A stretch of DNA of 64,000 nt from Promethearchaeia archaeon (GCA_029856125.1 JAHQWJ010000107.1:69038-133037); one strand, 5' to 3'; positions 6,248 through 25,927 are shown, counted from the first letter of the stretch. Translations and numbers: made by a program. Notes: a model not told the origin generated them from the sequence alone.

Positions 6248-7840
6248 TTGGAAAAAAATCTTCGATGGGATTTCCCATATCCTTCTAGAAGGATGCCCGT
6301 GTTAGCAGAAAATATTGTCTCTACATCTCAACCTCTTGCCTGCCAAGCGGGACTAAGCATGCTAAAAAAGGGAGGAAATGCCATAGATGCTGCCATAGCA
6401 ACTGCGATAACTCTTACTGTAGTCGAACCAGTTAACAATGGTATTGGAAGCGACGCATTTGCAATCGTGTTTAACGGAAAAGAATTAAAAGGGTTAAACG
6501 CTTCTGGTAAATCTCCTACTACTTGGACAGTAGATCATTTTTCTAAATATAAAACCATGCCCCTTTTGGGATGGGATTCAGTGACAATTCCTGGGGCGGT
6601 TTCAGCTTGGGTTGCCCTCTCAAAAAAATATGGACAATTAAACTTTAAAGATTTATTTGAGCCCGCAATTCAATATGCCGAGAAAGGATATATAGTTTCT
6701 CCTATTACCGCAAAAGTGTGGAAACAACTAGCTGTAATGTATAAGAAGAATAAGTTTCCAGAGTTTCACGAGACTTTTCTTCCTACTGGGAGAGCTCCTA
6801 AACCTGGTGAAATTTTTAAAAATCCAGATCAAGCAGTTACTTTAAGAAAAATCGCAGAAACAGAAGGAGAATCTTTTTATAGCGGAGAATTGGCAAAAAA
6901 AATCGTAGATCACGCTACTAACACTGGTGGAATGATAACACTTGAGGATTTAGAAAACCACGAAGCAACTTGGGAAAAGACAATAACTATGGAATATAAG
7001 GGTTTAACTTTGCATGAATTACCTCCTAACGGTCAAGGCCTAGCTGCGCTCATAATGCTAGGGATATTAAAAAACTTTGATTTAAGTCAATTTGAGCCTG
7101 ACTCTCCGCAATCGATACACTTACAAATAGAAGCGATGAAGTTAGCTTTTTCCGATGCATATCGCTATATTTCTGATAAAGATTATTTAGAATTTAACTC
7201 CTCTCTTATTCTTAATTCAAATTATTTAAAAAAAAGAGCAGAATTAATCGATCCAAGTAAAGCACGAAATTATCGTTATGGTAATCCTCAATCAGGAGAT
7301 ACGGTCTATTTAACAACTGCAGATGCGAATGGTATGATGGTTTCATATATTCAATCAAACTATCTAGGATTTGGGTCTGGAATAGTAATACCTAATACTG
7401 GGATCAGTCTTCAAAATAGAGGTAACGGATTCAATTTAAATGTAGGGCATCCAAATCAAGTTGGTCCGAGTAAACGTCCATATCACACAATAATCCCTGC
7501 ATTCGTAACTCAAAAGGAAGTTCCAGTAATGAGTTTTGGTGTCATGGGGGGTTCAATGCAACCCCAGGGTCATGCTCAAATGATGATTAGAATTTTTGAA
7601 TATCAACAAAACCCTCAAGCAGCAATCGATGCACCAAGGTGGCGAATAATGCAGGGACAGCAAGTAAACCTTGAACCGAGTTTTAACAGAGAATCAAAAA
7701 TGCAATTGGAAAATTTGGGGCACCATGTTTATAATGGGCATTATTTTGAATTTGGGGGCGCTCAAATTATATATAAACTTGATGATGGGTACTTAGCTGC
7801 CTCGGATCCTAGAAAAGATGGACAAGCAGTGGGATTTTAG
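6248..7840 (+). CDS. ggt: Gamma-glutamyltransferase family protein (Ntn hydrolase)
   Basis: GGNAIDAA, GIGSDAF, nucleophile segment GDTVYLT, KRPYHTIIP, GVMGGSMQPQG, SDPRKDG. Confidence 0.9.
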   Translation: MEKNLRWDFPYPSRRMPVLAENIVSTSQPLACQAGLSMLKKGGNAIDAAIATAITLTVVEPVNNGIGSDAFAIVFNGKELKGLNASGKSPTTWTVDHFSKYKTMPLLGWDSVTIPGAVSAWVALSKKYGQLNFKDLFEPAIQYAEKGYIVSPITAKVWKQLAVMYKKNKFPEFHETFLPTGRAPKPGEIFKNPDQAVTLRKIAETEGESFYSGELAKKIVDHATNTGGMITLEDLENHEATWEKTITMEYKGLTLHELPPNGQGLAALIMLGILKNFDLSQFEPDSPQSIHLQIEAMKLAFSDAYRYISDKDYLEFNSSLILNSNYLKKRAELIDPSKARNYRYGNPQSGDTVYLTTADANGMMVSYIQSNYLGFGSGIVIPNTGISLQNRGNGFNLNVGHPNQVGPSKRPYHTIIPAFVTQKEVPVMSFGVMGGSMQPQGHAQMMIRIFEYQQNPQAAIDAPRWRIMQGQQVNLEPSFNRESKMQLENLGHHVYNGHYFEFGGAQIIYKLDDGYLAASDPRKDGQAVGF

Positions 7841-7841
7841 G

Positions 7842-8750
7842 TTATATATCTCGAAATTCAAAAGCAGAAAAAATTTGTTTTATAATTTCTTTTTCGTGGA
7901 CATCAAGCCATTTAGAATAAGTATATTGTAAGGTTTTTCCTATGGAATAAACTTTTGGATGCCATAATGGATTATAAGGCAACAATTCAATCTTTTTAAT
8001 TCCTAAATTCTCTAAATAATTCGCCCATTGATTAAGATTTTTGTCATTGAGGGTAATTTTAGGAATTAATGGAATACGGGGCAATATCTCAACTGATTTT
8101 GATTCTAATAAAGCAGTAAAATTTTCGAAAATCTTTTTGTTTGAGACTCCGCAGTATTTCATGTGAAGCTTTTCATCAAAGATTTTCAAATCAAAATAAA
8201 TTAGATCGATAAAGGGAAGGATACGCTCGAAAAAAGTCTCTTTATTAAACAAACCACATGTTTCTAAACATACGTGTATGTTATTAGATTTAGCTTGTTT
8301 AAGGAATGAATGGAGAAATGGCATCTGATAGGTTGCCTCTCCACCTGAAAGAGTTATTCCTCCATTTGAATTTTCAAAAAATGGCTTGTCGATTAAAATT
8401 GTATCAAGTAGTTCCTTAACTGTAAAAAAAGTCCCCACAAACTTCAGAGCTTTAGTCTTACATTGCGAGATACATTCTCCGCAGTAAGTGCATTTTTCGA
8501 TTACTAAAGGATAATTTAACGAAAAATTAATAGCATCTTCAGGACAAGTCTCAACACAATCGTAGCAGGCTAGGCAATCCTCAGGACTATAAGATATCTC
8601 TTGTTTTAATTGTATACATTCAGGATTTTGGCACCAAATGCAAGATAAAGGGCATCCTTTAAAGAATATAACTGTTCGAATACCGGGACCATCATCTAAT
8701 GAATTTCTTTTAAGATTAGTTATAAATCCTTTCATTCCTAAATCAAGCAT
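7842..8750 (-). CDS. Glycyl-radical enzyme activating enzyme (radical SAM with 2x[4Fe-4S] insert)
   Basis: DGPGIRT, CPLSCIWCQNPE (CxxxCxxC), ferredoxin motifs CLACYDCVETCP and CTYCGECISQC, SGGE. Confidence 0.93.
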   Translation of the reverse strand: MLDLGMKGFITNLKRNSLDDGPGIRTVIFFKGCPLSCIWCQNPECIQLKQEISYSPEDCLACYDCVETCPEDAINFSLNYPLVIEKCTYCGECISQCKTKALKFVGTFFTVKELLDTILIDKPFFENSNGGITLSGGEATYQMPFLHSFLKQAKSNNIHVCLETCGLFNKETFFERILPFIDLIYFDLKIFDEKLHMKYCGVSNKKIFENFTALLESKSVEILPRIPLIPKITLNDKNLNQWANYLENLGIKKIELLPYNPLWHPKVYSIGKTLQYTYSKWLDVHEKEIIKQIFSAFEFRDI

Positions 8751-8773
8751 GTTATAAAGAGATTAGATATTAA

Positions 8774-11752
8774 TTAATGAGTGTGAAATTCCGTTCTACT
8801 AATTAGTTCAAGTTGGAGTTCTTTATTTAAATCGACAAAATAGGCGTTATATCCCGAAATTCTGACCATTAACCATTGATAATTTTCAGGTTGAACCATT
8901 GCATCCTTTAAAGTATCGGATGATACGACATTGAATTGCATCTGCATACCACCTAAATCAAAGTAGCTCTGAGTATATCCTCGAAAGTAGTTGATTGTTT
9001 CTTCATGAGTATCTTTAGGATCGGGTACTAATTTAACGTTAAAAGCAAGATTATTGGGCATTTTTTCGCTGTCCAATGCAGCCACCGCTCTTATATTCTC
9101 AATTAAAACATCTCTATCACTTGGAACAGGGGTCAACCCTGGCGTGAACGGTTTATAGGCTTTTCTCCCATTCGGTAAAGCTCCAGAAACATTGCCGAAA
9201 GCAACGTGATTGCTCATACTCCAAAATCCTACTAGATATTTACCCCCACGATAATTATCAAACGAATAAAAATCGTCATACACGTAATCTATAATCTCTT
9301 GGCCTAATTGAATCGTTTGTGAGTCATCAGTTCCAAACTTTGGTATTGATTTTATTCTTTTTAACAATAATTCCCCTTCTGGAGATGAAAAATTATTTTT
9401 TACATGATCATTAAAAACACTAAAATCAATTTCTTTTTTATCGTATACCAATGTTTTAACAACATTCAATGTATCAATAATATCAGCAAGTCCAATCATT
9501 GCTACACCTGAAGTGTTGTAAATTGCACCTCCATCCACTAAATCAATCCCTTTATCCATTGGTCCATCAAATAACGAACTTAATAAAGGTGATGGATGTA
9601 AAGTTTGATGTGCTCTTCCTAAAAGATTATTATATTCTACGCTTTTTTCAATCATAAAGTGAAGTTGTTGTTTGAAAGCGTTCAGAAAATCATTATTGTT
9701 TTTAAAATCACCAACTTCACCAGTATTTGGGCCAAATCTCTTATGATTACTAACAACAGGATGAAACCCATTATTGAGTGTCATTTCCATAGCAGCAATT
9801 GTATTAAACATCATGCAATTGGTATGACCAAAATGTTTTCCACAAATAGTTGGCTCAACACAGCCAGTTGCTGCCCATGTCCTTGCATCTTCCAGTTTTA
9901 TTCCAACTTTTGTCAGAGCATTAATCATTTGGATATCGTTATGAATTGAAGGCGTGGCATATGTATTTATATTAACCTCAAGGATTCGATCCAAATATTC
10001 TTTTGAATTCACTCCCGGATAGTAACGAGCATTTAAATTTGGATCTCTCAAGGTTAGCATTTCTGTTACTTTTAAAATTATAAATGTCATATCACAAACT
10101 GCAGATTTACCATCTTTATCAACACCGCCAACTGTCAGAGCAAAATCTTGGCTACTCCCCCCGAATAGATAATTTCCAACATCTGGAACTAAAGGAGCTT
10201 GATCTGAAACACGGAGAAAGAAACATCCCATTAATTCTATTGCTTTCTTAATATACTCTTCTTTCTGCTTATCTGATGTGATTTTTTCCATATCACTTTC
10301 AAAATATGGTTGTAACCAATGATCTAAACGACCAAGTGACAATCCCATATGAGCATTCTCTTGAGTTAGTGCAATCCACATTATCCAAATTGAGATGATT
10401 GCTTCTTCAAGGGTTTTAGGGGCTTCAGCAGGTACTTTCAACAATAGTTGTCCTAAGTGAAGTAATTCCTGTTTTCTCATCTTCAGCATTTCTGAAGCAT
10501 TTTGTTCATCGATTGTATCTGCTTTATGTGCTGCTTCATTTGCTAAATTTGCTGTATAATTTAAAACACCAGTTAACGCTAATTGGATTCCTTTATAGAA
10601 ATCTTCTTTTTTTGAATCAGTTGTTTCTTTTTCTTTAGAGGCAGCTTCATTCAATAACTTATTTATACCAGTTTTTAAAAAATCGGGAAATCCAGGGATG
10701 GTGTGGGAAATAGCTTGAGTTTTCCACATGAAATAAAATACAAAATGTTCATCCATTTGTTGAGATAAGGGATTACCATTTTTTGTTCTAACATATTCTC
10801 TAATATTTCTATCCATCCAAAAAGGAAAAACCTCATCATCTAAAATATCAATAGCTTCTTGATCTATTAGATGGGGATTTAATTCGCGATTATCAATCGA
10901 ATAAAGTTCCGGCCAGAAAATCATTGCCCCAAATTCTGGATATATCATTGTACCTAATCTTTTTGTGGTTGAAGTACCTGGTAAATAATCCCACTCTTGA
11001 ATTATAGGCATCTTATGAGAAAGAAGATAGTTGACTATTTTCCCCATTTTTAAGCCAGGATGATCATTATTCCCATCTTCTGGCGTATAGCCTTCTCTTT
11101 TACAAATTTCGGTAATTAATTTAGATCTTTCTGGGCAAACTTCAAGATTAGAAACTGAACGTATATATTTCAAATAGTTTAATCTTTTAAAATCCTTTAA
11201 CTGATATTTTCCCAAGTAAAGATCTTCTAAGTATTTCACATTATCAGTTTTATAATTAAGTATAGTATTCTTCATATGTTCTGTTCCGGACGAGAAATCT
11301 TCAAATTGTACAAATGGAATAGTCTCTTCTTTTTGGATATTCTGAATTCGTTGATCGTAAGCGTCTTTATGTTTTAACAAAACATATGTCATTAAAAAGA
11401 AGAATTTAGTCATTTGACTCATGTTTCCAATCGTATGTAGTTTATTTTTCAAAAGCATATTAACAATTTCTTCAGGTTTACTTCGAGGGAGTTTCCCCAA
11501 ATCTTTTACTTTTTTATATTTTAAGGTGAGGGTTGGGTTTTCGATAGTATCTTTAATAACTTCGATATTTCCATTATTAAAAATTATTGAGACGCTTTGA
11601 TTCTCATCTTCTTCAGCTGTAAAAAGTAATCTTGCGTTAAAAACAAAATTAGTTGCTTGGTTATAAATTTCTTTTTTATATTCTGGATTATCATCAATCA
11701 TCTGTTTAAGTAAACTAAAAACATTTGCAATTTTGCTTCTTACTTTCGCCAT
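8774..11752 (-). CDS. Glycyl radical enzyme (eliminase-type GCVE loop) with N-terminal SCP2-like domain
   Basis: Gly loop VRISGYN, Cys loop ATGCVEP, SLGRLD, GGMQMQFNV; first ~125 aa follow the SCP2 pattern (PTLTLKY...NMLLKNKLHTIGNMSQMTKF). Confidence 0.88.
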   Translation of the reverse strand: MAKVRSKIANVFSLLKQMIDDNPEYKKEIYNQATNFVFNARLLFTAEEDENQSVSIIFNNGNIEVIKDTIENPTLTLKYKKVKDLGKLPRSKPEEIVNMLLKNKLHTIGNMSQMTKFFFLMTYVLLKHKDAYDQRIQNIQKEETIPFVQFEDFSSGTEHMKNTILNYKTDNVKYLEDLYLGKYQLKDFKRLNYLKYIRSVSNLEVCPERSKLITEICKREGYTPEDGNNDHPGLKMGKIVNYLLSHKMPIIQEWDYLPGTSTTKRLGTMIYPEFGAMIFWPELYSIDNRELNPHLIDQEAIDILDDEVFPFWMDRNIREYVRTKNGNPLSQQMDEHFVFYFMWKTQAISHTIPGFPDFLKTGINKLLNEAASKEKETTDSKKEDFYKGIQLALTGVLNYTANLANEAAHKADTIDEQNASEMLKMRKQELLHLGQLLLKVPAEAPKTLEEAIISIWIMWIALTQENAHMGLSLGRLDHWLQPYFESDMEKITSDKQKEEYIKKAIELMGCFFLRVSDQAPLVPDVGNYLFGGSSQDFALTVGGVDKDGKSAVCDMTFIILKVTEMLTLRDPNLNARYYPGVNSKEYLDRILEVNINTYATPSIHNDIQMINALTKVGIKLEDARTWAATGCVEPTICGKHFGHTNCMMFNTIAAMEMTLNNGFHPVVSNHKRFGPNTGEVGDFKNNNDFLNAFKQQLHFMIEKSVEYNNLLGRAHQTLHPSPLLSSLFDGPMDKGIDLVDGGAIYNTSGVAMIGLADIIDTLNVVKTLVYDKKEIDFSVFNDHVKNNFSSPEGELLLKRIKSIPKFGTDDSQTIQLGQEIIDYVYDDFYSFDNYRGGKYLVGFWSMSNHVAFGNVSGALPNGRKAYKPFTPGLTPVPSDRDVLIENIRAVAALDSEKMPNNLAFNVKLVPDPKDTHEETINYFRGYTQSYFDLGGMQMQFNVVSSDTLKDAMVQPENYQWLMVRISGYNAYFVDLNKELQLELISRTEFHTH

Positions 11753-12002
11753 GTAATTTTACACTTAATTTTTTTATATTTATTTTTATATAAATTTTTT
11801 AATCTAATAAAATTGATCAAGAAATTAAAGTTTCGCTCTCTCTTAATTCTATGTAAGATATGTTAATCTTTCTTCTAATTTATTGCATTAGTTATACCCA
11901 CACATTTCCCAATATTATCTAACAGTAACATAAAAACTCTTTATTCAAAAAATAATATATATTTACTTTCATACTAATAAATAAAACCAATAGTGAAATT
12001 TT

Positions 12003-13262
12003 ATGCCAAATTCAAAAGATTATATGGAAATGGATGACAAATACTGCGCTCATAACTATCATCCTATTCCCGTTGTTATTTCAAAGGCAGAAGGAGTATG
12101 GGTTTACGATCCGGAAGGAAAAAAATATTTAGATTGTTTATCTGCCTATTCCTCTCAAAACGCGGGCCATTGCCATCCCGAAATTGTAAAAGCTTTAAAA
12201 GAGCAAGCCGATAAAGTCACTTTAACATCTCGTGCTTTTTATAACGATGTGATGGGCCCTTTTTTAAAAAAGCTATGCGAAGTTGTAGGACCGCATATCA
12301 ACGATCCAAAAAATTCCGGAATCATGGCACTACCTATGAACACTGGAACTGAAGCAGTGTCTACTGGTCTGAAAGTTGCTAGAGCTTGGGGTTATATTAA
12401 AAAGAAAATTCCTAAAAACGAAGCCAAAATTATAATCTGCAGAGACAACTTTCATGGGAGATCAATCACTATTGCGGGTTTTAGTACAGATATTGAGGCT
12501 GTAAGATACTACGGTAACTTTGGTCCTTACACTCCCGGTTTTGTTACGATCCCTTATGGGGATGCTGATGAATTAGAAAATAGCATTTTAGAAATCGGTG
12601 CTGAAACCGTAGCTGCGTTTCTATTCGAACCTATTCAAGGAGAAGCTGGAGTTAAAGTACCTCCAGAAGGTTTCATTAGAAAAGTTAGAGAAATATGCAC
12701 AAAATACAATGTTCTAATGATCGCTGATGAGATTCAAACAGGTTTCGGAAGAACAGGAGAATTATTTGCTTGTGATCACGAAAATGTGAAACCTGACGCT
12801 ATTTTACTTGGAAAAGCGTTAGGTGGAGGCGTTTATCCCGTTTCTGCCGTAGTTACTACACGAGATATTATTGGTCCGGATGTAATAAAACCTGGAACTC
12901 ACGGAAGCACATTTGGTGGAAACCCTTTAGCATCAGCTGTCGCTTTAAAATCTTTAGAAGTTCATATTGACGATCATTTAGCACAACGGTCCAAAGAATT
13001 TGGAACCTATTTCTTAAACGGTCTTAGTAATATAGCAGAAAAGAAGACTATAGTGCCGATAAAAGAAGTTAGAGGTAAAGGATTGTTGATGGCGATCGAG
13101 TTTGAATCAGATGCTAGACACATAGTAGAATTATTTAAAGATAACGGTGTGTTAGCTAAACATACTCATTCTACTACGATTCGTTTTGCCCCACCGTTAA
13201 TTATAACTAAGGATCAAATCGATTGGGCTCTTAAAATTATCGAAGACGTTTTAGTTATTTAA
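12003..13262 (+). CDS. rocD: Ornithine--oxo-acid aminotransferase (class III PLP)
   Basis: AHNYHPIP, LSAYSS, FHGRS, EPIQGEAGV, DEIQTGFGRTG, GKALGGG, HGSTFGGNP. Confidence 0.9.
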   Translation: MPNSKDYMEMDDKYCAHNYHPIPVVISKAEGVWVYDPEGKKYLDCLSAYSSQNAGHCHPEIVKALKEQADKVTLTSRAFYNDVMGPFLKKLCEVVGPHINDPKNSGIMALPMNTGTEAVSTGLKVARAWGYIKKKIPKNEAKIIICRDNFHGRSITIAGFSTDIEAVRYYGNFGPYTPGFVTIPYGDADELENSILEIGAETVAAFLFEPIQGEAGVKVPPEGFIRKVREICTKYNVLMIADEIQTGFGRTGELFACDHENVKPDAILLGKALGGGVYPVSAVVTTRDIIGPDVIKPGTHGSTFGGNPLASAVALKSLEVHIDDHLAQRSKEFGTYFLNGLSNIAEKKTIVPIKEVRGKGLLMAIEFESDARHIVELFKDNGVLAKHTHSTTIRFAPPLIITKDQIDWALKIIEDVLVI

Positions 13263-13301
13263 TGAATTCGGCTTTCTCATATCTCTTTTTTCCAGTTAGC
13301 A

Positions 13302-14489
13302 TTAAATAATTAAAAACACACCGTATAAACCAAGCAATAGTATAAAAGATATGAAAATCGGTTTGCCTAAGACTTTTGCAACTTTTATAAAATCTGTTTT
13401 AAAATATTCTGTACTATAGGCAACGCAAGGATGAAGCGGAGTAATTAGATATCCTAAAAAAATTGAAGTGTAAATAAAGATGAAATCAAGCAATGGCATG
13501 ATTGGAACTGTAAATTGTGCTAAATAAATGGGGAGTAAAATTGAAATGGGTAATTGGATACGTCCCGTTCCGAACCCAAGAAGAAAGCCGATTAATATAA
13601 GAAGAAAAACTGATAAATCTACGCTAGCAATTTCCTCAGGAGCACCAGAAAGAACAAACACCTCTAAAAATATAAACATCGAAAAAATAATTAATGGAAA
13701 ACGCCAAATTTTCATCTTTTTTGAAATGGGTTTTACACTTGAAACTTTCATTTTCCCAAATTTTAGCGCCAGCCAAATACTAATAATGAGACCAAGAAGA
13801 AGGAATAATTCTGGAACAAAGAAATTAAAAAATGTCCTTCCAACAAAATCGAAAACTGGGGCAATAAGAATTGGTAATAAATTGAGAAACGCTCGTTTAA
13901 GATCCCTTTCTCCTTGTTCTGTATAAGGAGACACATTCCTAACCAGCATAATGTATCCTATTACCCACATTACAATTAAACCAGGTAATAGCCCAAGAAC
14001 AAGTATATAGAGGTTTATGTTAGTGATTTTACTGGCTATGATCAAAGCAGAAGATATTGGATAAATCATAATCAACATATGTCTATACCATACATTGATT
14101 GAGACCTTGATATTCGCATCCTCTTCAGAATCTATCTGCTGTACAATAGGAGCGGACATTAATGCACCCCCGGGCACCGGTAATAATCCAAATAACGCCG
14201 GTATCATCATAAGAGAAGATTTCCTTGAAATTCGCATTTTTTGAATCATCTCCATCATTAACCCAGACTCTTCCATTATTCCTCCTAAGATAGGAATAAG
14301 TATCATAATAATGATTAAGGCTATTATCGATAGATCTGTTAACACATTGATTAAAGATTGCAAAAAATCAACTCCCGCCAAAATTGCAAAACCTAACGCT
14401 CCCAAAGTTAGTACAATCCCTAATTCATACTTAGAAAGTGCCATAACTATACCAATTATTATGATAAAACTTAACCAGGCGGGTAACAT
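13302..14489 (-). CDS. DUF401-like (ion-transporter superfamily) membrane protein
   Basis: Polytopic; PALFGLLPVPGGALMSAP, NVWYRH, GYLITPLHPC motifs. Confidence 0.75.
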   Translation of the reverse strand: MLPAWLSFIIIIGIVMALSKYELGIVLTLGALGFAILAGVDFLQSLINVLTDLSIIALIIIMILIPILGGIMEESGLMMEMIQKMRISRKSSLMMIPALFGLLPVPGGALMSAPIVQQIDSEEDANIKVSINVWYRHMLIMIYPISSALIIASKITNINLYILVLGLLPGLIVMWVIGYIMLVRNVSPYTEQGERDLKRAFLNLLPILIAPVFDFVGRTFFNFFVPELFLLLGLIISIWLALKFGKMKVSSVKPISKKMKIWRFPLIIFSMFIFLEVFVLSGAPEEIASVDLSVFLLILIGFLLGFGTGRIQLPISILLPIYLAQFTVPIMPLLDFIFIYTSIFLGYLITPLHPCVAYSTEYFKTDFIKVAKVLGKPIFISFILLLGLYGVFLII

Positions 14490-14584
14490 ATCTTTGAACG
14501 TGAGTGATTTTGATAATTCTACAATTCTATTCTTAGAAAAATAAAGGAATCAATATTTATTTTCTTATAATAAAACGTAAGAAT

Positions 14585-15499
14585 TTAACTAGTTTCAATA
14601 TAAAAATGCGTTCCTGCTTTACCCTCTAATGCATCTTTTATTTTTTCAATTGATGTAATAATCGCTCGCTCGCCACCAGATTCCAAGAAGTTAATAACTG
14701 CTTGAATTTTAGGACCCATACTTCCGGGAGGAAAATGACCTTGCTTTAAATAATTTTTAGCATCCAAGGTTGATACCTTATCCAGATATTTATAATCAAC
14801 TCTTCCAAAGTTTAAAGCGACTCTTTCTACATCTGTAGCAATTATTAGGATATCTGCACTTATCTGTTCTCCTAATTTTGCACTGGCTAAATCTTTGTCT
14901 ATTACAGCTTCAACCCCTTGAAAACGAGTCCCTTCTTTAATTACGGGAACTCCACCACCACCACATGATATAACGATAAAATTCTCCTGCATTAACTTCT
15001 TAATTTCTCGAGATTGTACTATCCTTATTGGTTTTGGTGATGGGACCACGCGTCTCCATCCTTTTGAAGTTTTCACATATCCTGGACGCTTTCTTTTGTA
15101 TGCCGGCCCAATTGGTTTTGTAGGGTGAGTAAACGCTTTATCGTTAGGGTCAACTTCAACATAAGTTAAAACTGTTAAGAAAAATTTTTCCAGATCAGTA
15201 CCAAGTCGCATTAATTCTTCATCGAGGGTAGATTCAATTAAAAAACCTATTTGTCCTTGAGTTTCAGCAACTAATATCTGCAAAGGCATTCTTGTAATCT
15301 CATCCGACGCTTCTTGTTGTAGAAGTAGTGCGCCTACTTGAGGGCCATTACCATGAGTAATAATAATGTTGTATTTTTCTGACAATTTAGCAATCTGCTT
15401 TATAGGTGCTTGTAAGTTATTAATCATCTGTTCGGGCGTTCCTCTTTCTCCCGGTTTTATGAGAGCATTTCCTCCAAGTGCAACAATTAGCGTTTTCAT
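14585..15499 (-). CDS. arcC: Carbamate kinase
   Basis: ALGGNAL, THGNGPQVG, PTKPIG, WRRVVPSP, EAVIDKD, GSMGPK. Confidence 0.95.
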   Translation of the reverse strand: MKTLIVALGGNALIKPGERGTPEQMINNLQAPIKQIAKLSEKYNIIITHGNGPQVGALLLQQEASDEITRMPLQILVAETQGQIGFLIESTLDEELMRLGTDLEKFFLTVLTYVEVDPNDKAFTHPTKPIGPAYKRKRPGYVKTSKGWRRVVPSPKPIRIVQSREIKKLMQENFIVISCGGGGVPVIKEGTRFQGVEAVIDKDLASAKLGEQISADILIIATDVERVALNFGRVDYKYLDKVSTLDAKNYLKQGHFPPGSMGPKIQAVINFLESGGERAIITSIEKIKDALEGKAGTHFYIETS

Positions 15500-15622
15500 T
15501 AAAGAGAACCTTTACAACAAACGATATAAAAGCAAATGAAAAATAATAATATTTTACTTCTTATTTAAAGCTTTTCTCTTCAATGTGGTACAATATCAAT
15601 CATCAAATGAAAAGGAAAAATT

Positions 15623-16555
15623 TTAAAATTTATCTCGTAAAAAGAGCATAATCCCTTTTTGGCCATGCAATCTGTTTTCTGCCTGATCGAATACAATCGA
15701 TTGAGGTCCATCTATAACTTCAGCAGTTTGTTCATAACCTCGTTTGGCTGGCAAGCAGTTCATAAAAATTGCGTCTGGTTTCGCAGTTTCCATTATCTGT
15801 GAGTTGACTTGGAATGGTATGAAAATTTTCCGTCGTTCTTCTTCCTTTTCAACAGGAATACCATAAGACATCCACGAGTCTGTGTATAGTACATCTGAGT
15901 CTTTCGCAGCTTTAAAGGCATCATGAATTACATTTATATGTGCACCCGTTTCTTTTGATATTTGAGAGACTTCATCAAGTACTTCTTGTTCAGGTGTATA
16001 TTCAGATCCAACAGGGCAAGCAACATCTAAGGTCAAACCAAAAATGGCAGCAATCCGCATTAAATCGTAAGTTACATTATTATACGCGTCTCCGAAATAA
16101 CTAATTTTAAGATTATCCAATCGTCCTTTTTTCTCTTTTATAGTTAAGAAATCTCCCATCATTTGGCATGGATGCGCAAAATCGTCAAGCATGTTGATTA
16201 CCGGTACTTCCGCGTGTTGAGCTAAATCCCTAACATCTTGTCGCTTAAACACTCTTGCGGCTATCAAGTTAACGAATCTTGAGGCGGTCTTTGCAGTATC
16301 GTGAATATTTTCTTTCTTGCCAAGAGGAGAATCCTTTATTGAATAAAAAATAGCGTGACCTCCTAATTGTTGCATCCCTACTTCAAAGGAGATTCTTGTT
16401 CTTAAGGAAGGCTTTGCAAATATCATTAAAAGCGTTTCTCCTTTAAGCGTGGAATCAAAAATGTGGGGATTTTGTTTAATCTCTAAAGCTTTATTGATTA
16501 TTTTCTTGATTTCCGCCTTCGAAAGGTCAGAAATTTTTAATAAATGTCGAACCAT
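15623..16555 (-). CDS. arcB: Ornithine carbamoyltransferase (probably catabolic; SLRT/MNCLP variant)
   Basis: FAKPSLRTR, HPCQ, DSWMSYG, FMNCLP, QAENRLH; adjacent to carbamate kinase. Confidence 0.92.
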   Translation of the reverse strand: MVRHLLKISDLSKAEIKKIINKALEIKQNPHIFDSTLKGETLLMIFAKPSLRTRISFEVGMQQLGGHAIFYSIKDSPLGKKENIHDTAKTASRFVNLIAARVFKRQDVRDLAQHAEVPVINMLDDFAHPCQMMGDFLTIKEKKGRLDNLKISYFGDAYNNVTYDLMRIAAIFGLTLDVACPVGSEYTPEQEVLDEVSQISKETGAHINVIHDAFKAAKDSDVLYTDSWMSYGIPVEKEEERRKIFIPFQVNSQIMETAKPDAIFMNCLPAKRGYEQTAEVIDGPQSIVFDQAENRLHGQKGIMLFLRDKF

Positions 16556-16595
16556 TTTAACATCAATGAATTTATTAGATAATACTTTATATTTT

Positions 16596-17762
16596 TTACT
16601 TTAAATCTTCTATTTTATGGTTATCGCGACTGTAAGCAAGTTCTCTTAACATTTCTTCATCTTTTGAATTTAGTTTTTCTGTAATTTCACGACTTAGGAG
16701 TTCCCCGAGTCCAGGACCAAGCATGAAACCCTGACCACACATACCAACTGCGTTAATGTAACCTTCAATATCGTCGATTCTACCAATTATGGGGTTTCCG
16801 TCTGGAGTCATAGGATATAATCCTCTCCAGGTCCTTCTAATTTTGATGTTTTTTAAACGCGGCAGTAAATTAACCATTCTTTTTGAGATTTGTGGTAAGA
16901 ACGAGCTAGTTTCGCGACGATCAATACCGGGAATGTTAGGTTCTGGCGTAAGACAAAATATAATCTTACCCTCTTTATTTTGATAGAAATAATAATTTTT
17001 TGAGTTTCCAAACTTCTCATCTGTAGCAGGTTTAATATCAATAACCATTGTAGAAAAGAATTTTTTAACGGGTTCGGTAATCCCTGCCTCATGGCTTTCT
17101 GGAACAACAGGTAAATCAATATTTAGCATGTTACCAATATCTTTAGCGTGAGCTCCTGCTGCATTAATTATTGTTTGAGTTTTATATTCTGCTTTATTGG
17201 TTTTTACGCCTGTGATTTTTTTATTTTTTGTAGCGATATCAATTACTTCTTCGCTAAAGTTATATTCTGCTCCAAATTCCTTTGATTTACGATAAAACGC
17301 ATGAAGGGCTAATAAAGGAGATGAATTTCCATCTTCAGGGCTATATGTGCCACCTAATAAATTATCACTATTTATTCCAGGAACCAAGTCTTTAATTTTA
17401 TCTGCATTTACATAATCAATATTTAATCCAAATTCCTTTTGTTGTCGAACCGTATTTTTTAACATTTGTTCGTGTTCGTTAGTAAACGCTAGAAAACAAT
17501 AACCACCTTGTTCCCACCAAATATCGTTTCCATACAATTCTTTCCAAGAAGCAAAAATTTCTATTGATCTTTGGCATAGCCAAATCTTGCTTTTAAGTGA
17601 ATGAGTTGCTCTAATACCCCCTATTGCGTGTTTATTATCGCCCTGAGCAACTGAAGGTAAACTATCAAGAACAAGCGTTTTAAGTCCAACTTTTGCCGTA
17701 GCTAAAGCAGTTGGGACGCCGATACTTCCAGCTCCTATAATGATAACGTCGTACTCCACCAA
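16596..17762 (-). CDS. FAD-dependent amino-acid/amine dehydrogenase, L-proline dehydrogenase/sarcosine oxidase beta-like
   Basis: IIGAGSIG FAD fold, NAAGAHA, WRGLYPMTPDG, GMCGQGFMLGP. Confidence 0.8.
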   Translation of the reverse strand: MVEYDVIIIGAGSIGVPTALATAKVGLKTLVLDSLPSVAQGDNKHAIGGIRATHSLKSKIWLCQRSIEIFASWKELYGNDIWWEQGGYCFLAFTNEHEQMLKNTVRQQKEFGLNIDYVNADKIKDLVPGINSDNLLGGTYSPEDGNSSPLLALHAFYRKSKEFGAEYNFSEEVIDIATKNKKITGVKTNKAEYKTQTIINAAGAHAKDIGNMLNIDLPVVPESHEAGITEPVKKFFSTMVIDIKPATDEKFGNSKNYYFYQNKEGKIIFCLTPEPNIPGIDRRETSSFLPQISKRMVNLLPRLKNIKIRRTWRGLYPMTPDGNPIIGRIDDIEGYINAVGMCGQGFMLGPGLGELLSREITEKLNSKDEEMLRELAYSRDNHKIEDLK

Positions 17763-23746: not shown

Positions 23747-25927
23747 TTATTGATAAGGAGTTATAATATCAATTATTTTATGAAAATCTATTCCTAACTT
23801 TTTTGCAGTCTCTATAGTAGGGCAACCGTTTTTACTCCAACCTCGTTCAATGTAAACCGCATCCTGGAGTTTTTTATACTGTTCTTCTCGATGCTCACGG
23901 AGTATTTTGATTTTTTCTCCAGTAGATTTACCCATAATATCGATCTTCATCTCTTTTAACTGATTATCATATCTCTCTGCTCGACTTTCGTATTCAAGCG
24001 GAGTGACAGGTCCAACAGCCCTATATGGTAAATTAGAATCGTGTTCTCGAAGACCTTTACCCTGTCTGATGTTAAATATTCTTTGAAAGGTATACACTCG
24101 TTCAGACATCAAGAGGAGATCGTCTATTGTAGATTCGCGACCAGTCACCGCTGAAAAATATTGTGTATACCATTTTACGTGATCAGGAATTTTAGCGCGG
24201 ACTAGTTCTCCCGTTTTAGGATCTTTGATAGGGTAATCTGCCTGACTCGTTGGTTGGATGTCGTTCCAGGGCAGCTTGCATAAACCGCATAAACTAAACC
24301 AAGTTCTCCATATTGGGAAATACTGTAGAGCTTTAGCTTTATCCTTAAATGTTGGAATCGAATTTCGAATAACATCGTCAAAAATAAGCCAAGCTTCGTC
24401 GTGTTGTGGACCTTTGTTTGCTAATCCATACCCACATTGTTGTGCTAACGATTCTTTGGTTACATATTCAGAAAATTCTAAACCCTTGTGTTCCATGCCG
24501 ATATCCTGCACAAATTGTGGATCTGCCCCATAGTTTTCGACAAAATATTTTTTCATATATTTTATACCTTTTCCAACGATAATTCCAAAGCCTTCACCCT
24601 TAGCCATTTGATGAATTAATTCAACCGCAGCCTCAACACTTCCGAAATTTAAATCCAAACCTCCAGTTCTTTCTTTATTTAAAATACCCGCTTCATAACA
24701 CTCCATAACGAAGGCTATCCCTGTACCTACTGAAATAGTATCTAATCCGTAAGTATCGCAATAGAAATTTACTTCTAAAACCCATTTTGGGTCCCATACG
24801 CCCCAGTTTGAGCCACAACCAGCTATAGTCTCGTATTCTGGACCGTCAACAATTAATTTTTGTCCTTTAAAAGGACCCGTTCGAACTTCATATCCATCTG
24901 AATAGTGAGAACAGCTCACAGTGCATCCAATCCAACAACCGTCTCCTCCCTCTTTTCCAGAGTATATCTCCCTCATTATTTCTCTACTATACGGGATATC
25001 TTTTCCACTAATTTCTTTATGTCTTCCGAATCGAAAATTTTCTGTTGGTAAAAGGTCAGTAACATTCATAATATCGGGAAGATGCCCCGTTCCAACTCTG
25101 CGCATTTCATTCTGGACAGGATCAAGTTTAATTATTTCTTGAGTATGTGCTATCCCTATTTTTCTAGCTTCTTCTAAATTAGCGGGATTATTCGATCCAA
25201 CGGAAACTTTTGGAGAACGACACACCAAAGCTTTAATGTTTTTATCAGCAAAAACGGTCCCAATTCCCCCTCGTCCAGCCTGTTTGCTTGATGCCCATTT
25301 ACGACCCGGAACGTACCACGAGAAGTTTAATAACCCCCAATTCGTATGATTAGCCGCAGGGCCAGTACTTACGATGGAAACTCGTTGTTTTTCACGATCA
25401 TCTTGTGCGTATACTTCAGTAAGTTGCTGGGTCAATTCGTGAGAATACTTTGATAATTCTTCAGATGCTTCAATGGTTTTGATTTGGATAACGCCTTCAA
25501 CGCCATCAATGTACACAATAACTTCTTGTTGAGACTTCCCTTGAATTTCAAGCGCATCGAACCCTGAGAATTTTAAATACGGCCCGAAATATCCCCCCAC
25601 ATTTGAATCTACGATAATATCTGTTAAGGGTGATATTGTTGTAACTATAGATTTTCCCGATCCTGGGTAAAAGATATTTCCTCCTAATGGTCCTGAAGAG
25701 ATGCATATTTCGTTTTCAGGATCGTTCCACTTTACTATTTTATCTTGCGGGAGTCCATTCCACATAAGCCAAAGATCGAAACCTTTCCCTCCAATAAAAT
25801 TCTCTTTCATTCCATCGGTAACTGGCTTTATCTGAATCTCGCTATTGGTAAGATTAATGTAGAGTGTTCTGTTAGTATACCCTTTTTGGACTTCGTGGAG
25901 TTCATAGTTCTTTTCTGCCAAAATCAT
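23747..25927 (-). CDS. Aldehyde:ferredoxin oxidoreductase (tungstopterin) family
   Basis: DSNVGGYFG, AGRGGIG, CWIGCTVSC, GPEYET, DTYGLD motifs. Confidence 0.9.
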   Translation of the reverse strand: MILAEKNYELHEVQKGYTNRTLYINLTNSEIQIKPVTDGMKENFIGGKGFDLWLMWNGLPQDKIVKWNDPENEICISSGPLGGNIFYPGSGKSIVTTISPLTDIIVDSNVGGYFGPYLKFSGFDALEIQGKSQQEVIVYIDGVEGVIQIKTIEASEELSKYSHELTQQLTEVYAQDDREKQRVSIVSTGPAANHTNWGLLNFSWYVPGRKWASSKQAGRGGIGTVFADKNIKALVCRSPKVSVGSNNPANLEEARKIGIAHTQEIIKLDPVQNEMRRVGTGHLPDIMNVTDLLPTENFRFGRHKEISGKDIPYSREIMREIYSGKEGGDGCWIGCTVSCSHYSDGYEVRTGPFKGQKLIVDGPEYETIAGCGSNWGVWDPKWVLEVNFYCDTYGLDTISVGTGIAFVMECYEAGILNKERTGGLDLNFGSVEAAVELIHQMAKGEGFGIIVGKGIKYMKKYFVENYGADPQFVQDIGMEHKGLEFSEYVTKESLAQQCGYGLANKGPQHDEAWLIFDDVIRNSIPTFKDKAKALQYFPIWRTWFSLCGLCKLPWNDIQPTSQADYPIKDPKTGELVRAKIPDHVKWYTQYFSAVTGRESTIDDLLLMSERVYTFQRIFNIRQGKGLREHDSNLPYRAVGPVTPLEYESRAERYDNQLKEMKIDIMGKSTGEKIKILREHREEQYKKLQDAVYIERGWSKNGCPTIETAKKLGIDFHKIIDIITPYQ

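What the first reader, a model, noticed from the sequence alone, without database searches (positions are those of the whole stretch)
7842..11752. SCP2 lipid-carrier domain fused to an eliminase-type glycyl radical enzyme, with dedicated activase: candidate anaerobic lipid-cleaving radical system
Seen: the 992-aa GRE is well above the usual ~800 aa. Its first ~125 aa (about 11380-11752) match the sterol-carrier-protein-2 fold pattern, it has an intact RISGY Gly loop and a GCVEP Cys loop, and a ferredoxin-insert activase follows 23 bp downstream. Established: CxE loops mark 1,2-eliminases (CutC, glycerol/propanediol dehydratase, HypD, IslA); PFL has Cys-Cys; fumarate-adding enzymes lack the Glu and need small subunits. 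The residues after the loop (TICGKHFGHTNCMMFN) match none of the characterised enzymes as I recall them. Inference: SCP2 delivers a hydrophobic substrate (e.g. alkyl-glycerol ether, long-chain diol or amino-alcohol, steroid/hopanoid polyol side chain) for O2-independent C-O or C-N elimination. The product aldehyde could be oxidised by an AOR such as 23747-25927. I know of no characterised SCP2-GRE fusion.
Basis: partly seen in the sequence, partly recalled or inferred. Interest (0 to 1): 0.85.

Follow-up and report, generated by a model that had tools for sequence, protein, structure and literature searches.

The report
Radical enzyme fused to lipid-carrier domain
An Asgard archaeon encodes an oxygen-sensitive glycyl radical enzyme of the dehydratase/lyase type with a genuine sterol-carrier (SCP2) domain at its front end; relatives always keep such a module, fused or as a separate gene, so it probably cuts a C-O bond in a greasy molecule without oxygen, but no substrate is known.

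Summary
ORF 8774-11752(-) is a 992-aa glycyl radical enzyme (GRE). Its activase (7842-8750, -) lies 23 bp downstream. Residues 1-127 fold as SCP2: Z 13.1 to human SCP-2L and Z 12.7 to the alkylsulfatase SCP2-like domain.

The catalytic core has the Cys-x-Glu loop (C631, E633). It also has the His (H350) that aligns with the general acid His164 of glycerol dehydratase. It scores far below every curated cut-off for a characterised GRE.

The N-fused family occurs in Asgard archaea and at least seven bacterial phyla, and is monophyletic. Its sister clade encodes the same SCP2 module as a separate ~150-aa gene between GRE and activase. One member of that clade carries it as a C-terminal fusion. The SCP2 module is therefore an ancestral, obligate partner of a whole GRE superclade.

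The best reading is a C-O-cleaving 1,2-eliminase acting on an amphiphilic alcohol, diol or ether, with SCP2 holding the hydrophobic part. The substrate is unknown, and neighbouring genes in the window give no help. I found no paper describing such an enzyme. This scan has noted the same fusion before on other DNA (31 notes, at least 26 genomes). I class it as a new variant of a known kind.

The parts
8774..11752 (-). 992-aa glycyl radical enzyme with N-terminal SCP2 domain (P0001)
   Evidence: ORF and translation. Pfam PFL-like and Gly_radical. Full-length AF2 model has pLDDT 89.3 and pTM 0.91.
11372..11752 (-). SCP2-fold domain, residues 1-127, with no cysteine
   Evidence: AF2 pLDDT above 90. 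Foldseek top hits are all SCP2. VIA-align Z 13.1, 12.7 and 12.1. Profile against PDB sequences gives SCP2 at E 0.0026.
11186..11371 (-). Linker and conserved strap, residues 128-189. It is variable up to about residue 165, followed by the conserved motif D170-x-VKYL...DF(P/K)RL.
   Evidence: Alignment A4. In the full-length model residues 161-190 have no secondary structure but pLDDT 81-93. The linker's net charge is basic in most bacterial members and neutral here.
9194..11140 (-). PFL-like barrel core, residues 205-853
   Evidence: PF02901, E 3.5e-138. The best PDB sequence hit is 2f3o at 337 bits.
10700..10708 (-). S349-H350-T351. H350 aligns with the general acid His164 of glycerol dehydratase.
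   Evidence: phmmer alignments to 1r8w and 6vxc. H350 is kept in 76 of 77 family members. Coordinates verified.
9818..9868 (-). Cys loop, residues 629-645, with C631 and E633. H640, H643 and T644 are family-invariant.
9206..9229 (-). Family signature GFWSMSNH, residues 842-849. W844 aligns with glycerol dehydratase Tyr640.
   Evidence: Invariant or nearly so in 77 members. Absent from the sister clade. Residues 845-853 have low pLDDT.
8834..9145 (-). Glycyl radical domain, residues 870-973. RISGY is at 8849-8863 and the radical site is G967.
   Evidence: PF01228, E 1e-22. Coordinates verified.
7842..8750 (-). GRE-activating radical SAM enzyme, 302 aa. CX3CX2C is at 8631-8654 and the ferredoxin-like insert at 8442-8597.
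   Evidence: TIGR02494 at 281 bits, above the cut-off of 174. Pfam Radical_SAM and Fer4. The activase is adjacent in 63 of 78 related loci.
11753..12002 (.). AT-rich 250-bp region shared with the divergent aminotransferase gene, presumed to hold the promoter
   Evidence: Sequence. No ORF of 30 aa or more. No Rfam match.

Best explanation
A two-gene module encodes a glycyl radical 1,2-eliminase, or the related isomerase type, that works on an amphiphilic substrate.

Proposed mechanism. The activase uses S-adenosylmethionine to place a radical on G967. The radical passes to C631, which takes a hydrogen atom from a carbon that bears a hydroxyl group. E633 deprotonates that hydroxyl, and H350 protonates an oxygen leaving group (OH or OR) on the neighbouring carbon. 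The C-O bond breaks and C631 returns the hydrogen, giving an aldehyde or ketone.

Role of SCP2. The N-terminal SCP2 domain is held on the core by an ordered strap. It binds the hydrophobic part of the substrate, or gates its entry. It thereby does the job that a separately encoded SCP2 protein does in the sister clade.

Shown here:
- the GRE and activase identity;
- the SCP2 fold;
- the Cys-x-Glu and His residues;
- the ancestral and obligate pairing of SCP2 with this GRE superclade.

Inferred:
- the chemistry;
- lipid binding;
- a catabolic or accessory role.

Speculative: the substrate. Candidates are alkylglycerols, archaeol-type ether lipids, monoacylglycerols or diacylglycerols, and long-chain 1,2-diols.
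For: GRE and activase identity.

SCP2 fold:
- Z is 12-13 to lipid-binding SCP2 proteins and to the alkyl-chain-binding domain of alkylsulfatases.
- Z is only 5-6.6 to the non-lipid SCP2-like domains of Eis/GNAT proteins.

Catalytic residues:
- C631/E633 align with C433/E435 of glycerol dehydratase, and H350 with His164.
- The review PMC13450708 states that CXE marks all eliminases and isomerases, and that Glu435 and His164 act in glycerol dehydratase.
- The same His is present in E. coli YbiW and PflD, which cleave a ring ether.
- The pocket motifs are invariant in 77 members from Archaea and Bacteria.

SCP2 pairing:
- The N-domain is detectable in 75 of 76 full-length members.
- The N-fused clade is monophyletic with support 100.
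- The sister clade has the gene order GRE - SCP2 (~150 aa) - activase. One of its members carries a C-terminal SCP2 fusion.
- Together the two clades have support 100.

Context:
- A cognate TetR regulator lies upstream in 12 bacterial loci.
- An AOR gene adjoins the module in 4 loci.
- GDPD with HAD phosphatase, or Zn-phospholipase C, occurs in a few lineages.

Distribution is patchy, at 15 of 27 genomes of the window's genus, which fits an accessory function.
Against: - No lipid binding or activity has been measured.
- The SCP2 fold does not by itself prove lipid binding.
- The conserved pocket is rich in His, Ser, Asn and Asp, so at least the reactive group is polar, and the whole substrate could be small.
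- Neighbouring genes in the window are for amino-acid metabolism: gamma-glutamyltranspeptidase, class-III aminotransferase, ornithine carbamoyltransferase and carbamate kinase.
- Across 78 loci only the activase is conserved.
- The basic linker that might suggest membrane docking is absent in the window's own subclade.
- The position of SCP2 relative to the substrate channel could not be examined.
Confidence: 0.5

Rival explanations
1. The substrate is a small polar metabolite such as a diol, polyol, sugar phosphate or amino alcohol. The SCP2 module is then a structural or regulatory subunit. It would cover a hydrophobic patch, gate the channel or aid activation, like the small subunits of other multisubunit GREs, and would carry no lipid.
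For: - The conserved pocket is polar.
- The window's neighbours are amino-acid genes.
- The same genome has five other small-substrate-type GREs, including a HypD orthologue.
- Small subunits of BSS, MASS and HPAD mainly serve solubility and gating (PMC13450708).
- SCP2-like domains in Eis/GNAT proteins are not known lipid carriers.
Against: - The domain resembles true lipid-binding SCP2 proteins much more closely (Z 12-13) than the Eis type (Z 5-6.6).
- No characterised small-substrate eliminase needs such a module.
- The partner is kept in three architectures across clades with different pockets. That fits a general hydrophobic-tail role.
- TetR regulators and occasional lipid-headgroup hydrolases lie nearby.
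Confidence: 0.22
2. It is a lipid-remodelling or biosynthetic enzyme acting on the cell's own membrane lipids or isoprenoid intermediates, not a catabolic enzyme.
For: - The enzyme is cytoplasmic and has a lipid-carrier domain.
- The linker is basic in most bacterial members, with a mean net charge of +5.8, which could dock on anionic membranes.
- UbiJ-SCP2, a biosynthetic lipid chaperone, is among the best structural hits.
Against: - The gene is variable within one genus (15 of 27 genomes) and present in only 36 of 301 sampled genomes of the phylum.
- The pocket is the same in archaea and bacteria, although their membrane lipids differ.
- Bacterial loci have TetR-type control.
Confidence: 0.1
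3. It is a hydrocarbon-activating X-succinate synthase, as proposed for Asgard PFL2-like GREs and for A. fulgidus PflD, with SCP2 delivering an alkane.
For: - The best PDB sequence hit is A. fulgidus PFL2 (2f3o, 337 bits), whose function is debated between glycerol dehydratase and MASS (PMC13450708).
- Zhang et al. 2021 (PMC8163825) called Asgard homologues Ass/Bss on 29-33% identity.
- A hydrophobic carrier would suit alkanes.
Against: - It scores lower to MasD (200 bits) and BSS (137 bits) than to eliminases (296-316 bits).
- The CXE motif and the His general acid are fully conserved.
- The pocket is polar.
- The window has no room for small subunits: the spacer is 23 nt and the upstream gap holds no ORF of 30 aa or more.
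- No conserved small ORF family was found in 78 loci, although ORFs under 70 aa were not clustered.
Confidence: 0.07
4. It is a pyruvate formate-lyase, as most database names say.
For: Source names such as 'formate acetyltransferase' or 'pyruvate formate lyase family protein'.
Against: - It has Gly-Cys where E. coli PflB has Cys-Cys.
- TIGR01255 scores 112 bits against a cut-off of 994.
- PFL structures score only 80 bits.
Confidence: 0.01

Closest known systems
B12-independent glycerol dehydratase (C. butyricum, PDB 1R8W/1R9D) and GRE 1,2-propanediol dehydratase (5I2A)
   Same: Same PFL2-type barrel, Gly loop, Cys-x-Glu loop and general-acid His (H350 = His164). Both have a long-form activase with a ferredoxin-like insert. 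Scores are 316 and 296 bits.
   Different: - Identity is roughly a quarter to a third (my estimate; no figure was computed).
- GD Asp447 is Asn645 here, His281/Ser282 are Met469/Gly470 (Ala-Gly in most of the family), and Tyr640 is Trp844.
- This family has its own invariant motifs HxxHTN, FWSMSNH and NNxAFNxK.
- It carries an extra 190-residue SCP2-plus-strap N-terminus.
- No microcompartment genes were seen.
Archaeoglobus fulgidus PFL2/PflD (PDB 2F3O)
   Same: Best sequence match among solved structures (337 bits). It is archaeal, of CVE type and of unknown function.
   Different: It is 776 aa with no SCP2 domain. Its pocket residues differ, and it is not a member of the SCP2-associated superclade as far as tested.
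E. coli YbiW and PflD (GRE isomerases that open the ring ether of anhydro-sugar phosphates)
   Same: They have CXE and the same His. They set a precedent for radical beta-cleavage of an ether C-O bond next to a carbinol carbon.
   Different: Their substrates are small sugar phosphates and they have no SCP2 module. In the tree they fall outside the superclade.
SCP2-like domains fused to enzymes: alkylsulfatases SdsA1/Pisa1, MFE-2 SCP-2L, UbiJ
   Same: Same fold, with Z 11-13. In each case it is attached to, or partnered with, an enzyme that handles a long hydrophobic chain.
   Different: Those partners are hydrolases, beta-oxidation enzymes or quinone-biosynthesis proteins. None is a radical enzyme.
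Multisubunit GREs (BSS, MASS, HPAD) with small accessory subunits
   Same: These are GREs that need an extra polypeptide. In the sister clade the SCP2 module is a separate small gene between GRE and activase.
   Different: Those subunits are Fe-S proteins. The SCP2 module of the window protein has no cysteine, and its fold is a lipid carrier.

Membership tests
Glycyl radical enzyme superfamily (PFL-like) | PFL-like barrel domain | tested here: met
   PF02901, E 3.5e-138, residues 205-853
Glycyl radical enzyme superfamily (PFL-like) | C-terminal glycyl radical domain with the RVxG[FWY]-type loop | tested here: met
   PF01228, E 1e-22. RISGY is at residues 964-968 and is kept in 76 of 77 relatives.
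Glycyl radical enzyme superfamily (PFL-like) | Catalytic Cys on the Cys loop | tested here: met
   C631 aligns with Cys433 of glycerol dehydratase and Cys434 of HypD. It is invariant.
Glycyl radical enzyme superfamily (PFL-like) | Cognate radical SAM activase | tested here: met
   TIGR02494 at 281 bits against a cut-off of 174. It lies 23 nt downstream and is adjacent in 63 of 78 loci.
Glycyl radical enzyme superfamily (PFL-like) | Glycyl radical formation and turnover | not testable with these tools
   Needs anaerobic reconstitution and EPR.
GRE 1,2-eliminases / isomerases | Cys-x-Glu motif | tested here: met
   C631-V-E633 is invariant in 77 members. The motif is defined in PMC13450708.
GRE 1,2-eliminases / isomerases | General-acid His at the glycerol dehydratase His164 position (C-O cleaving members) | tested here: met
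   H350 aligns with His164 of 1r8w and with the His of HypD. CutC has Asp at this position. The His is kept in 76 of 77 members.
GRE 1,2-eliminases / isomerases | Membership of a characterised equivalog (HypD, CutC, PflD-type, HpfG, HpsG) | tested here: not met
   NCBIfam scores are 384/1100, 377/1050, 354/1109, 334/1000 and 314/1000. Even the TIGR01774 subfamily scores 479, below its cut-off of 678.
X-succinate synthases | Small beta/gamma subunit genes beside the catalytic subunit | tested here: not met
   In the window the GRE-activase spacer is 23 nt and the upstream 250 bp holds no ORF of 30 aa or more. No recurrent small ORF of 70 aa or more was found in 78 loci.
X-succinate synthases | Closest sequence similarity to BSS/MASS catalytic subunits | tested here: not met
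   137 and 200 bits, against 296-337 bits to eliminase-type structures.
Pyruvate formate-lyase | Adjacent Cys-Cys pair and a TIGR01255-level score | tested here: not met
   G630-C631 aligns where PflB has Cys-Cys. The score is 112 bits against a cut-off of 994.
SCP2 (sterol carrier protein 2) fold | Alpha/beta SCP2 fold covering the whole domain | tested here: met
   Z 13.1, rmsd 2.4 A, 113 of 116 residues. More than 25 SCP2 entries score Z>=9.6. Foldseek probability is 1.0.
SCP2 (sterol carrier protein 2) fold | Pfam PF02036 above its gathering score | tested here: not met
   The window protein has no hit at E<=10. 7 of 25 relatives hit weakly. One stand-alone homologue passes, at 27.2 against 21.3 bits.
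SCP2 (sterol carrier protein 2) fold | Binding of a lipid in the hydrophobic tunnel | not testable with these tools
Needs binding assays or a structure.

The most novel reading that the evidence does not exclude
The SCP2-associated GREs are the missing oxygen-independent ether-lipid lyases. After loss of the head group, the thiyl radical attacks the free carbinol carbon of an alkylglycerol or of archaeol/GDGT-type core lipids. The neighbouring ether oxygen then leaves, as in YbiW/PflD ring-ether opening, releasing the alkyl or isoprenoid alcohol and a C3 carbonyl compound. This would give sediment anaerobes, Asgard archaea included, a way to eat archaeal and bacterial ether lipids.
Probability: 0.12. 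Interest if true: 0.9.

Novelty: new variant of a known kind. Interest (0 to 1): 0.62.

Why it matters
Every characterised glycyl radical eliminase acts on a small water-soluble molecule, and every PFL-like GRE of known function is bacterial (PMC13450708). A GRE superclade that always carries a lipid-carrier module would extend this chemistry to hydrophobic or membrane-derived substrates. It would also give Asgard archaea their first GRE with a testable function.

How ether lipids, long-chain diols and similar sedimentary lipids are degraded without oxygen is an open question. It bears on carbon turnover and on lipid biomarker records. This family is a concrete candidate that can be expressed and assayed.

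The work also cautions against two annotation habits: naming such genes pyruvate formate-lyase, and reading them as alkylsuccinate synthases.

Tried and rejected
- **Pfam on the N-terminus alone.** No SCP2 hit. The fold had to be shown by modelling and profiles.
- **Gene neighbourhood of the N-fused family.** I examined 78 loci by ORF clustering and five Pfam scans. Only the activase is conserved, and a TetR is recurrent. The remaining genes are lineage-specific synteny such as chaperones, ECF transporters and sigma factors. SDR adjacency in 12 loci is about what chance would give.
- **Literature.** I found no paper linking GREs with SCP2 or ether lipids, and nothing on Acididesulfobacillus expression of this gene.
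- **Rfam upstream of the operon.** Nothing found.
- **DUF6765, the commonest partner in the sister clade.**
  - Profile comparison against Zn-phospholipase C-like neighbours gave probability 1.6% over one His/Asp motif, which is inconclusive.
  - There was no PDB sequence hit.
  - The protein atlas was uninformative.
- **Sister-clade partners in the window's genome.** DUF6765, the lipoprotein-like family and Zn-PLC were not found there.
- **Tunnel or interface analysis of the full-length model.** Not possible, because coordinates are not exposed.
- **PFL and X-succinate synthase readings.** Rejected on motifs, scores and missing subunits.


Full report
**What is there.** The minus strand carries a 992-aa ORF (8774-11752). 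After a 23-nt spacer comes a 302-aa ORF (7842-8750).
- The large protein has a PFL-like domain (residues 205-853, E 3.5e-138) and a glycine-radical domain (870-973, E 1e-22).
- The small protein is a GRE activase. TIGR02494 scores 281 bits against a cut-off of 174. It has CX3CX2C (C33/C37/C40) and a Cys-rich ferredoxin-like insert.
- Source names of close homologues show an Asgard (Promethearchaeota/Lokiarchaeia) origin.
- The assembly is 3.69 Mb and 99% complete. It holds six PFL-like GREs, of which only this one is extended.

**The N-terminal domain.** Pfam sees nothing in residues 1-200, so I tested the SCP2 claim in other ways.
- An AlphaFold2 model built on 26 homologues has pLDDT above 90 over residues 1-125. 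It has a long N-terminal helix, a five-stranded sheet and C-terminal helices.
- All significant Foldseek matches in the PDB are SCP2 folds: UbiJ-SCP2, A. fulgidus AF1534, the alkylsulfatase C-terminal domains and rabbit SCP2.
- VIA-align gives Z 13.1 (rmsd 2.4 A, 113 of 116 residues) to human SCP-2L. It gives Z 12.7 to the Pisa1 alkylsulfatase domain, Z 12.1 to mosquito SCP-2 with bound C16 fatty acid, and Z 11.8 to UbiJ.
- The SCP2-like domains of Eis/GNAT acetyltransferases reach only Z 5-6.6.
- A profile of 49 N-domains has four SCP2 proteins as its best PDB sequence hits, the best at E 0.0026.
- 7 of 25 relatives hit Pfam SCP2 weakly.
- The domain has no cysteine.

A variable linker follows the domain. 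After it comes a conserved motif (D170-x-VKYL ... DF(P/K)RL) that the full-length model places in an extended, confident conformation. That model has pLDDT 89.3 and pTM 0.91 overall, and residues 161-190 have pLDDT 81-93 with no secondary structure.

**The catalytic core.** Against solved structures the best scores are:

| Structure | Bits |
|---|---|
| A. fulgidus PFL2 (2f3o) | 337 |
| Glycerol dehydratase | 316 |
| HypD | 314 |
| CutC | 310 |
| MasD | 200 |
| BSS | 137 |
| PFL | 80 |

- Every NCBIfam equivalog is missed by a wide margin, and even the PFL2-3 subfamily model scores below its cut-off.
- For scale, a paralogue in the same genome scores 1029 bits to HypD.
- In the phmmer alignments C631/E633 match Cys433/Glu435 of glycerol dehydratase, and H350 matches His164. 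CutC has Asp at that last position.
- The 2026 review by Imrich et al. (PMC13450708) states that the CXE motif is kept by all GRE eliminases and isomerases. It also states that Glu435 and His164 are the base and acid of glycerol dehydratase.
- The same His is present in E. coli YbiW and PflD, which open a ring ether next to a carbinol carbon.
- Other glycerol-binding positions differ. Asp447 becomes Asn645, His281/Ser282 become Met469/Gly470, and Tyr640 becomes Trp844.
- Across 77 family members the pocket motifs are invariant or nearly so: SHT349-351, FGGSS530-534, D536, TGCVEPT, H640, H643, T644, GFWSMSNH842-849 and NNxAFNxK900-907.

This points to one well-defined, polar reactive group that is shared from Asgard archaea to spirochaetes.

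**The family.** A scan of one genome per species returned 80 full-length relatives. They come from Promethearchaeota, Hermod- and Sigynarchaeota, Bacillota, Chloroflexota, Thermodesulfobacteriota, Myxococcota, Spirochaetota, Actinomycetota and others.
- The N-domain is BLASTP-detectable in 75 of 76 of them.
- They form one clade (SH-aLRT 100). All 19 Asgard sequences form a single subclade (support 99).
- Within the phylum the N-domain was found in 36 of 301 sampled genomes and in 15 of 27 genomes of the window's genus. The gene is therefore accessory.
- The protein atlas lists about 28 clusters of roughly 980-aa proteins with generic PFL names. SCP2 is annotated on 15% of one of them.

**The decisive addition: the SCP2 module is an obligate partner.** A profile search with the N-domain against 1.84 billion representatives found 618 clusters. 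Among them are many 140-180-aa proteins that end just after the last SCP2 helix, some of which hit Pfam SCP2. Earlier notes of this scan suggested that the module can be a separate gene, and I tested that.
- A metagenome scan with these stand-alone proteins gave 80 loci. Where the contig is long enough, the usual order is GRE (~810-830 aa) - SCP2 (~150 aa) - activase.
- One GRE (L128, 969 aa) carries the module at its C-terminus. It is 51% identical to a stand-alone protein and matches the window's N-domain at E 1.7e-9.
- In a joint tree the N-fused clade (support 100) and the split/C-fused clade (support 99) are sisters (support 100). They stand apart from the genome's other GREs and from E. 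coli PflD, YbiW and PflB.
- The split enzymes keep GCVE and mostly SHT. They lack HxxHTN, FWSMSNH and NNxAFN, so their pockets differ.

The module is therefore ancestral to a superclade and is retained whatever the head-group pocket.

**Context.** In the window the neighbours are:
- a gamma-glutamyltranspeptidase (convergent);
- a class-III aminotransferase (divergent);
- DUF401;
- carbamate kinase;
- ornithine carbamoyltransferase;
- an FAD oxidoreductase.

These are not lipid genes. The AOR at 23747-25927 is real but unlinked.

Across 78 N-fused loci only the activase is conserved (63 loci). One TetR family lies directly upstream in 12 bacterial loci. An AOR adjoins the module in 4 loci from at least two subclades. 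GDPD with HAD phosphatase, or Zn-phospholipase C, occurs in single lineages.

In the sister clade the recurrent partners are DUF6765 (21 loci) and a lipoprotein-like family without a Pfam match (26 loci). A link of DUF6765 to phospholipase C stayed inconclusive.

**Reading.** The module most likely encodes a C-O-cleaving radical eliminase or isomerase whose substrate has a polar, hydroxyl-bearing reactive end and a hydrophobic part held by SCP2.

The chemistry rests on conserved residues and published mechanisms. The hydrophobic substrate rests on two things: the fold's closeness to true lipid carriers, and the obligate pairing. Both are inferences, and the substrate is unknown.

Two lesser points also bear on the reading. 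The YbiW/PflD precedent makes ether cleavage as plausible as dehydration. The basic linker of bacterial members (mean net charge +5.8) hints at membrane docking, but it is neutral in the window's subclade.

**Rivals.**
- A small polar substrate with a purely structural SCP2 subunit (0.22).
- Lipid remodelling rather than catabolism (0.10).
- An X-succinate synthase, as proposed for Asgard homologues by Zhang et al. 2021 (PMC8163825) (0.07). This is disfavoured by CXE plus His, the polar pocket, the lower similarity and the lack of small subunits.
- PFL (0.01).

**Novelty.** I found no paper describing a GRE with an SCP2 module. The 2026 review notes that all characterised PFL-like GREs are bacterial and that archaeal ones are unassigned. 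The fusion is visible in automatic annotation: one NCBI name calls a relative an 'SCP2 sterol-binding domain-containing protein'. This scan has also flagged it many times on other DNA. It is a new variant of a known kind, and it is experimentally tractable.

Noticed in passing
L090-L169 (metagenome loci), e.g. L152:1-13116, L139, L096: A sister clade of GREs has the SCP2 module as a separate ~150-aa gene between GRE and activase. Recurrent partners are DUF6765 (21 loci) and a family without a Pfam match (26 loci). That family occurs as one ~820-aa protein or two ~315-aa proteins, and its N-terminus looks like a lipoprotein signal.
   Followed up: partly
L128:5490-8399 (+): A 969-aa GRE carries the SCP2-like domain at its C-terminus (residues 838-969). 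This is a third architecture of the same pairing. P0266 shows the same junction.
   Followed up: yes
Own genome: L001-L004, L006 (G000 contigs C148, C84, C9, C27, C44): The genome has five further GREs, each with a GCxE loop. L001 is a clear HypD (trans-4-hydroxy-L-proline dehydratase) orthologue, at 1029 bits to 6vxc. The other four are unassigned.
   Followed up: partly
L044 and L079 (Chloroflexota); own locus L006: In two Chloroflexota loci the SCP2-GRE/activase pair sits beside a second GRE/activase pair (838 aa). Its orthologue in the window's genome is the 833-aa GRE of L006, which has a GCLEN loop.
   Followed up: no
L047 and L084: Two SCP2-fused GRE genes lie in tandem in one locus. 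Several Asgard genomes also hold two copies (G135, G186, G300).
   Followed up: no
window 12003-17762: A cluster of amino-acid catabolism genes lies next to the module: class-III aminotransferase, DUF401 membrane protein, carbamate kinase, ornithine carbamoyltransferase and an FAD-dependent oxidoreductase. A gamma-glutamyltranspeptidase at 6248-7840 ends 1 nt from the activase gene.
   Followed up: partly
window 23747-25927 (-): A 726-aa aldehyde:ferredoxin oxidoreductase family protein (1aor, 178 bits). It is longer than the ~605-aa reference enzymes.
   Followed up: partly
window 9194-9218 (residues 845-853): The invariant SMSNHVAFG stretch is the least confident part of the full-length model (pLDDT below 50). 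It may be a mobile active-site loop.
   Followed up: no
L007:8331-9911 and L011:2410-3982: In the closest relatives, an EamA-type transporter fused to an AsnC-like ligand domain and a stand-alone 80-aa AsnC-like protein lie directly upstream of the GRE. Both are missing from the window.
   Followed up: no
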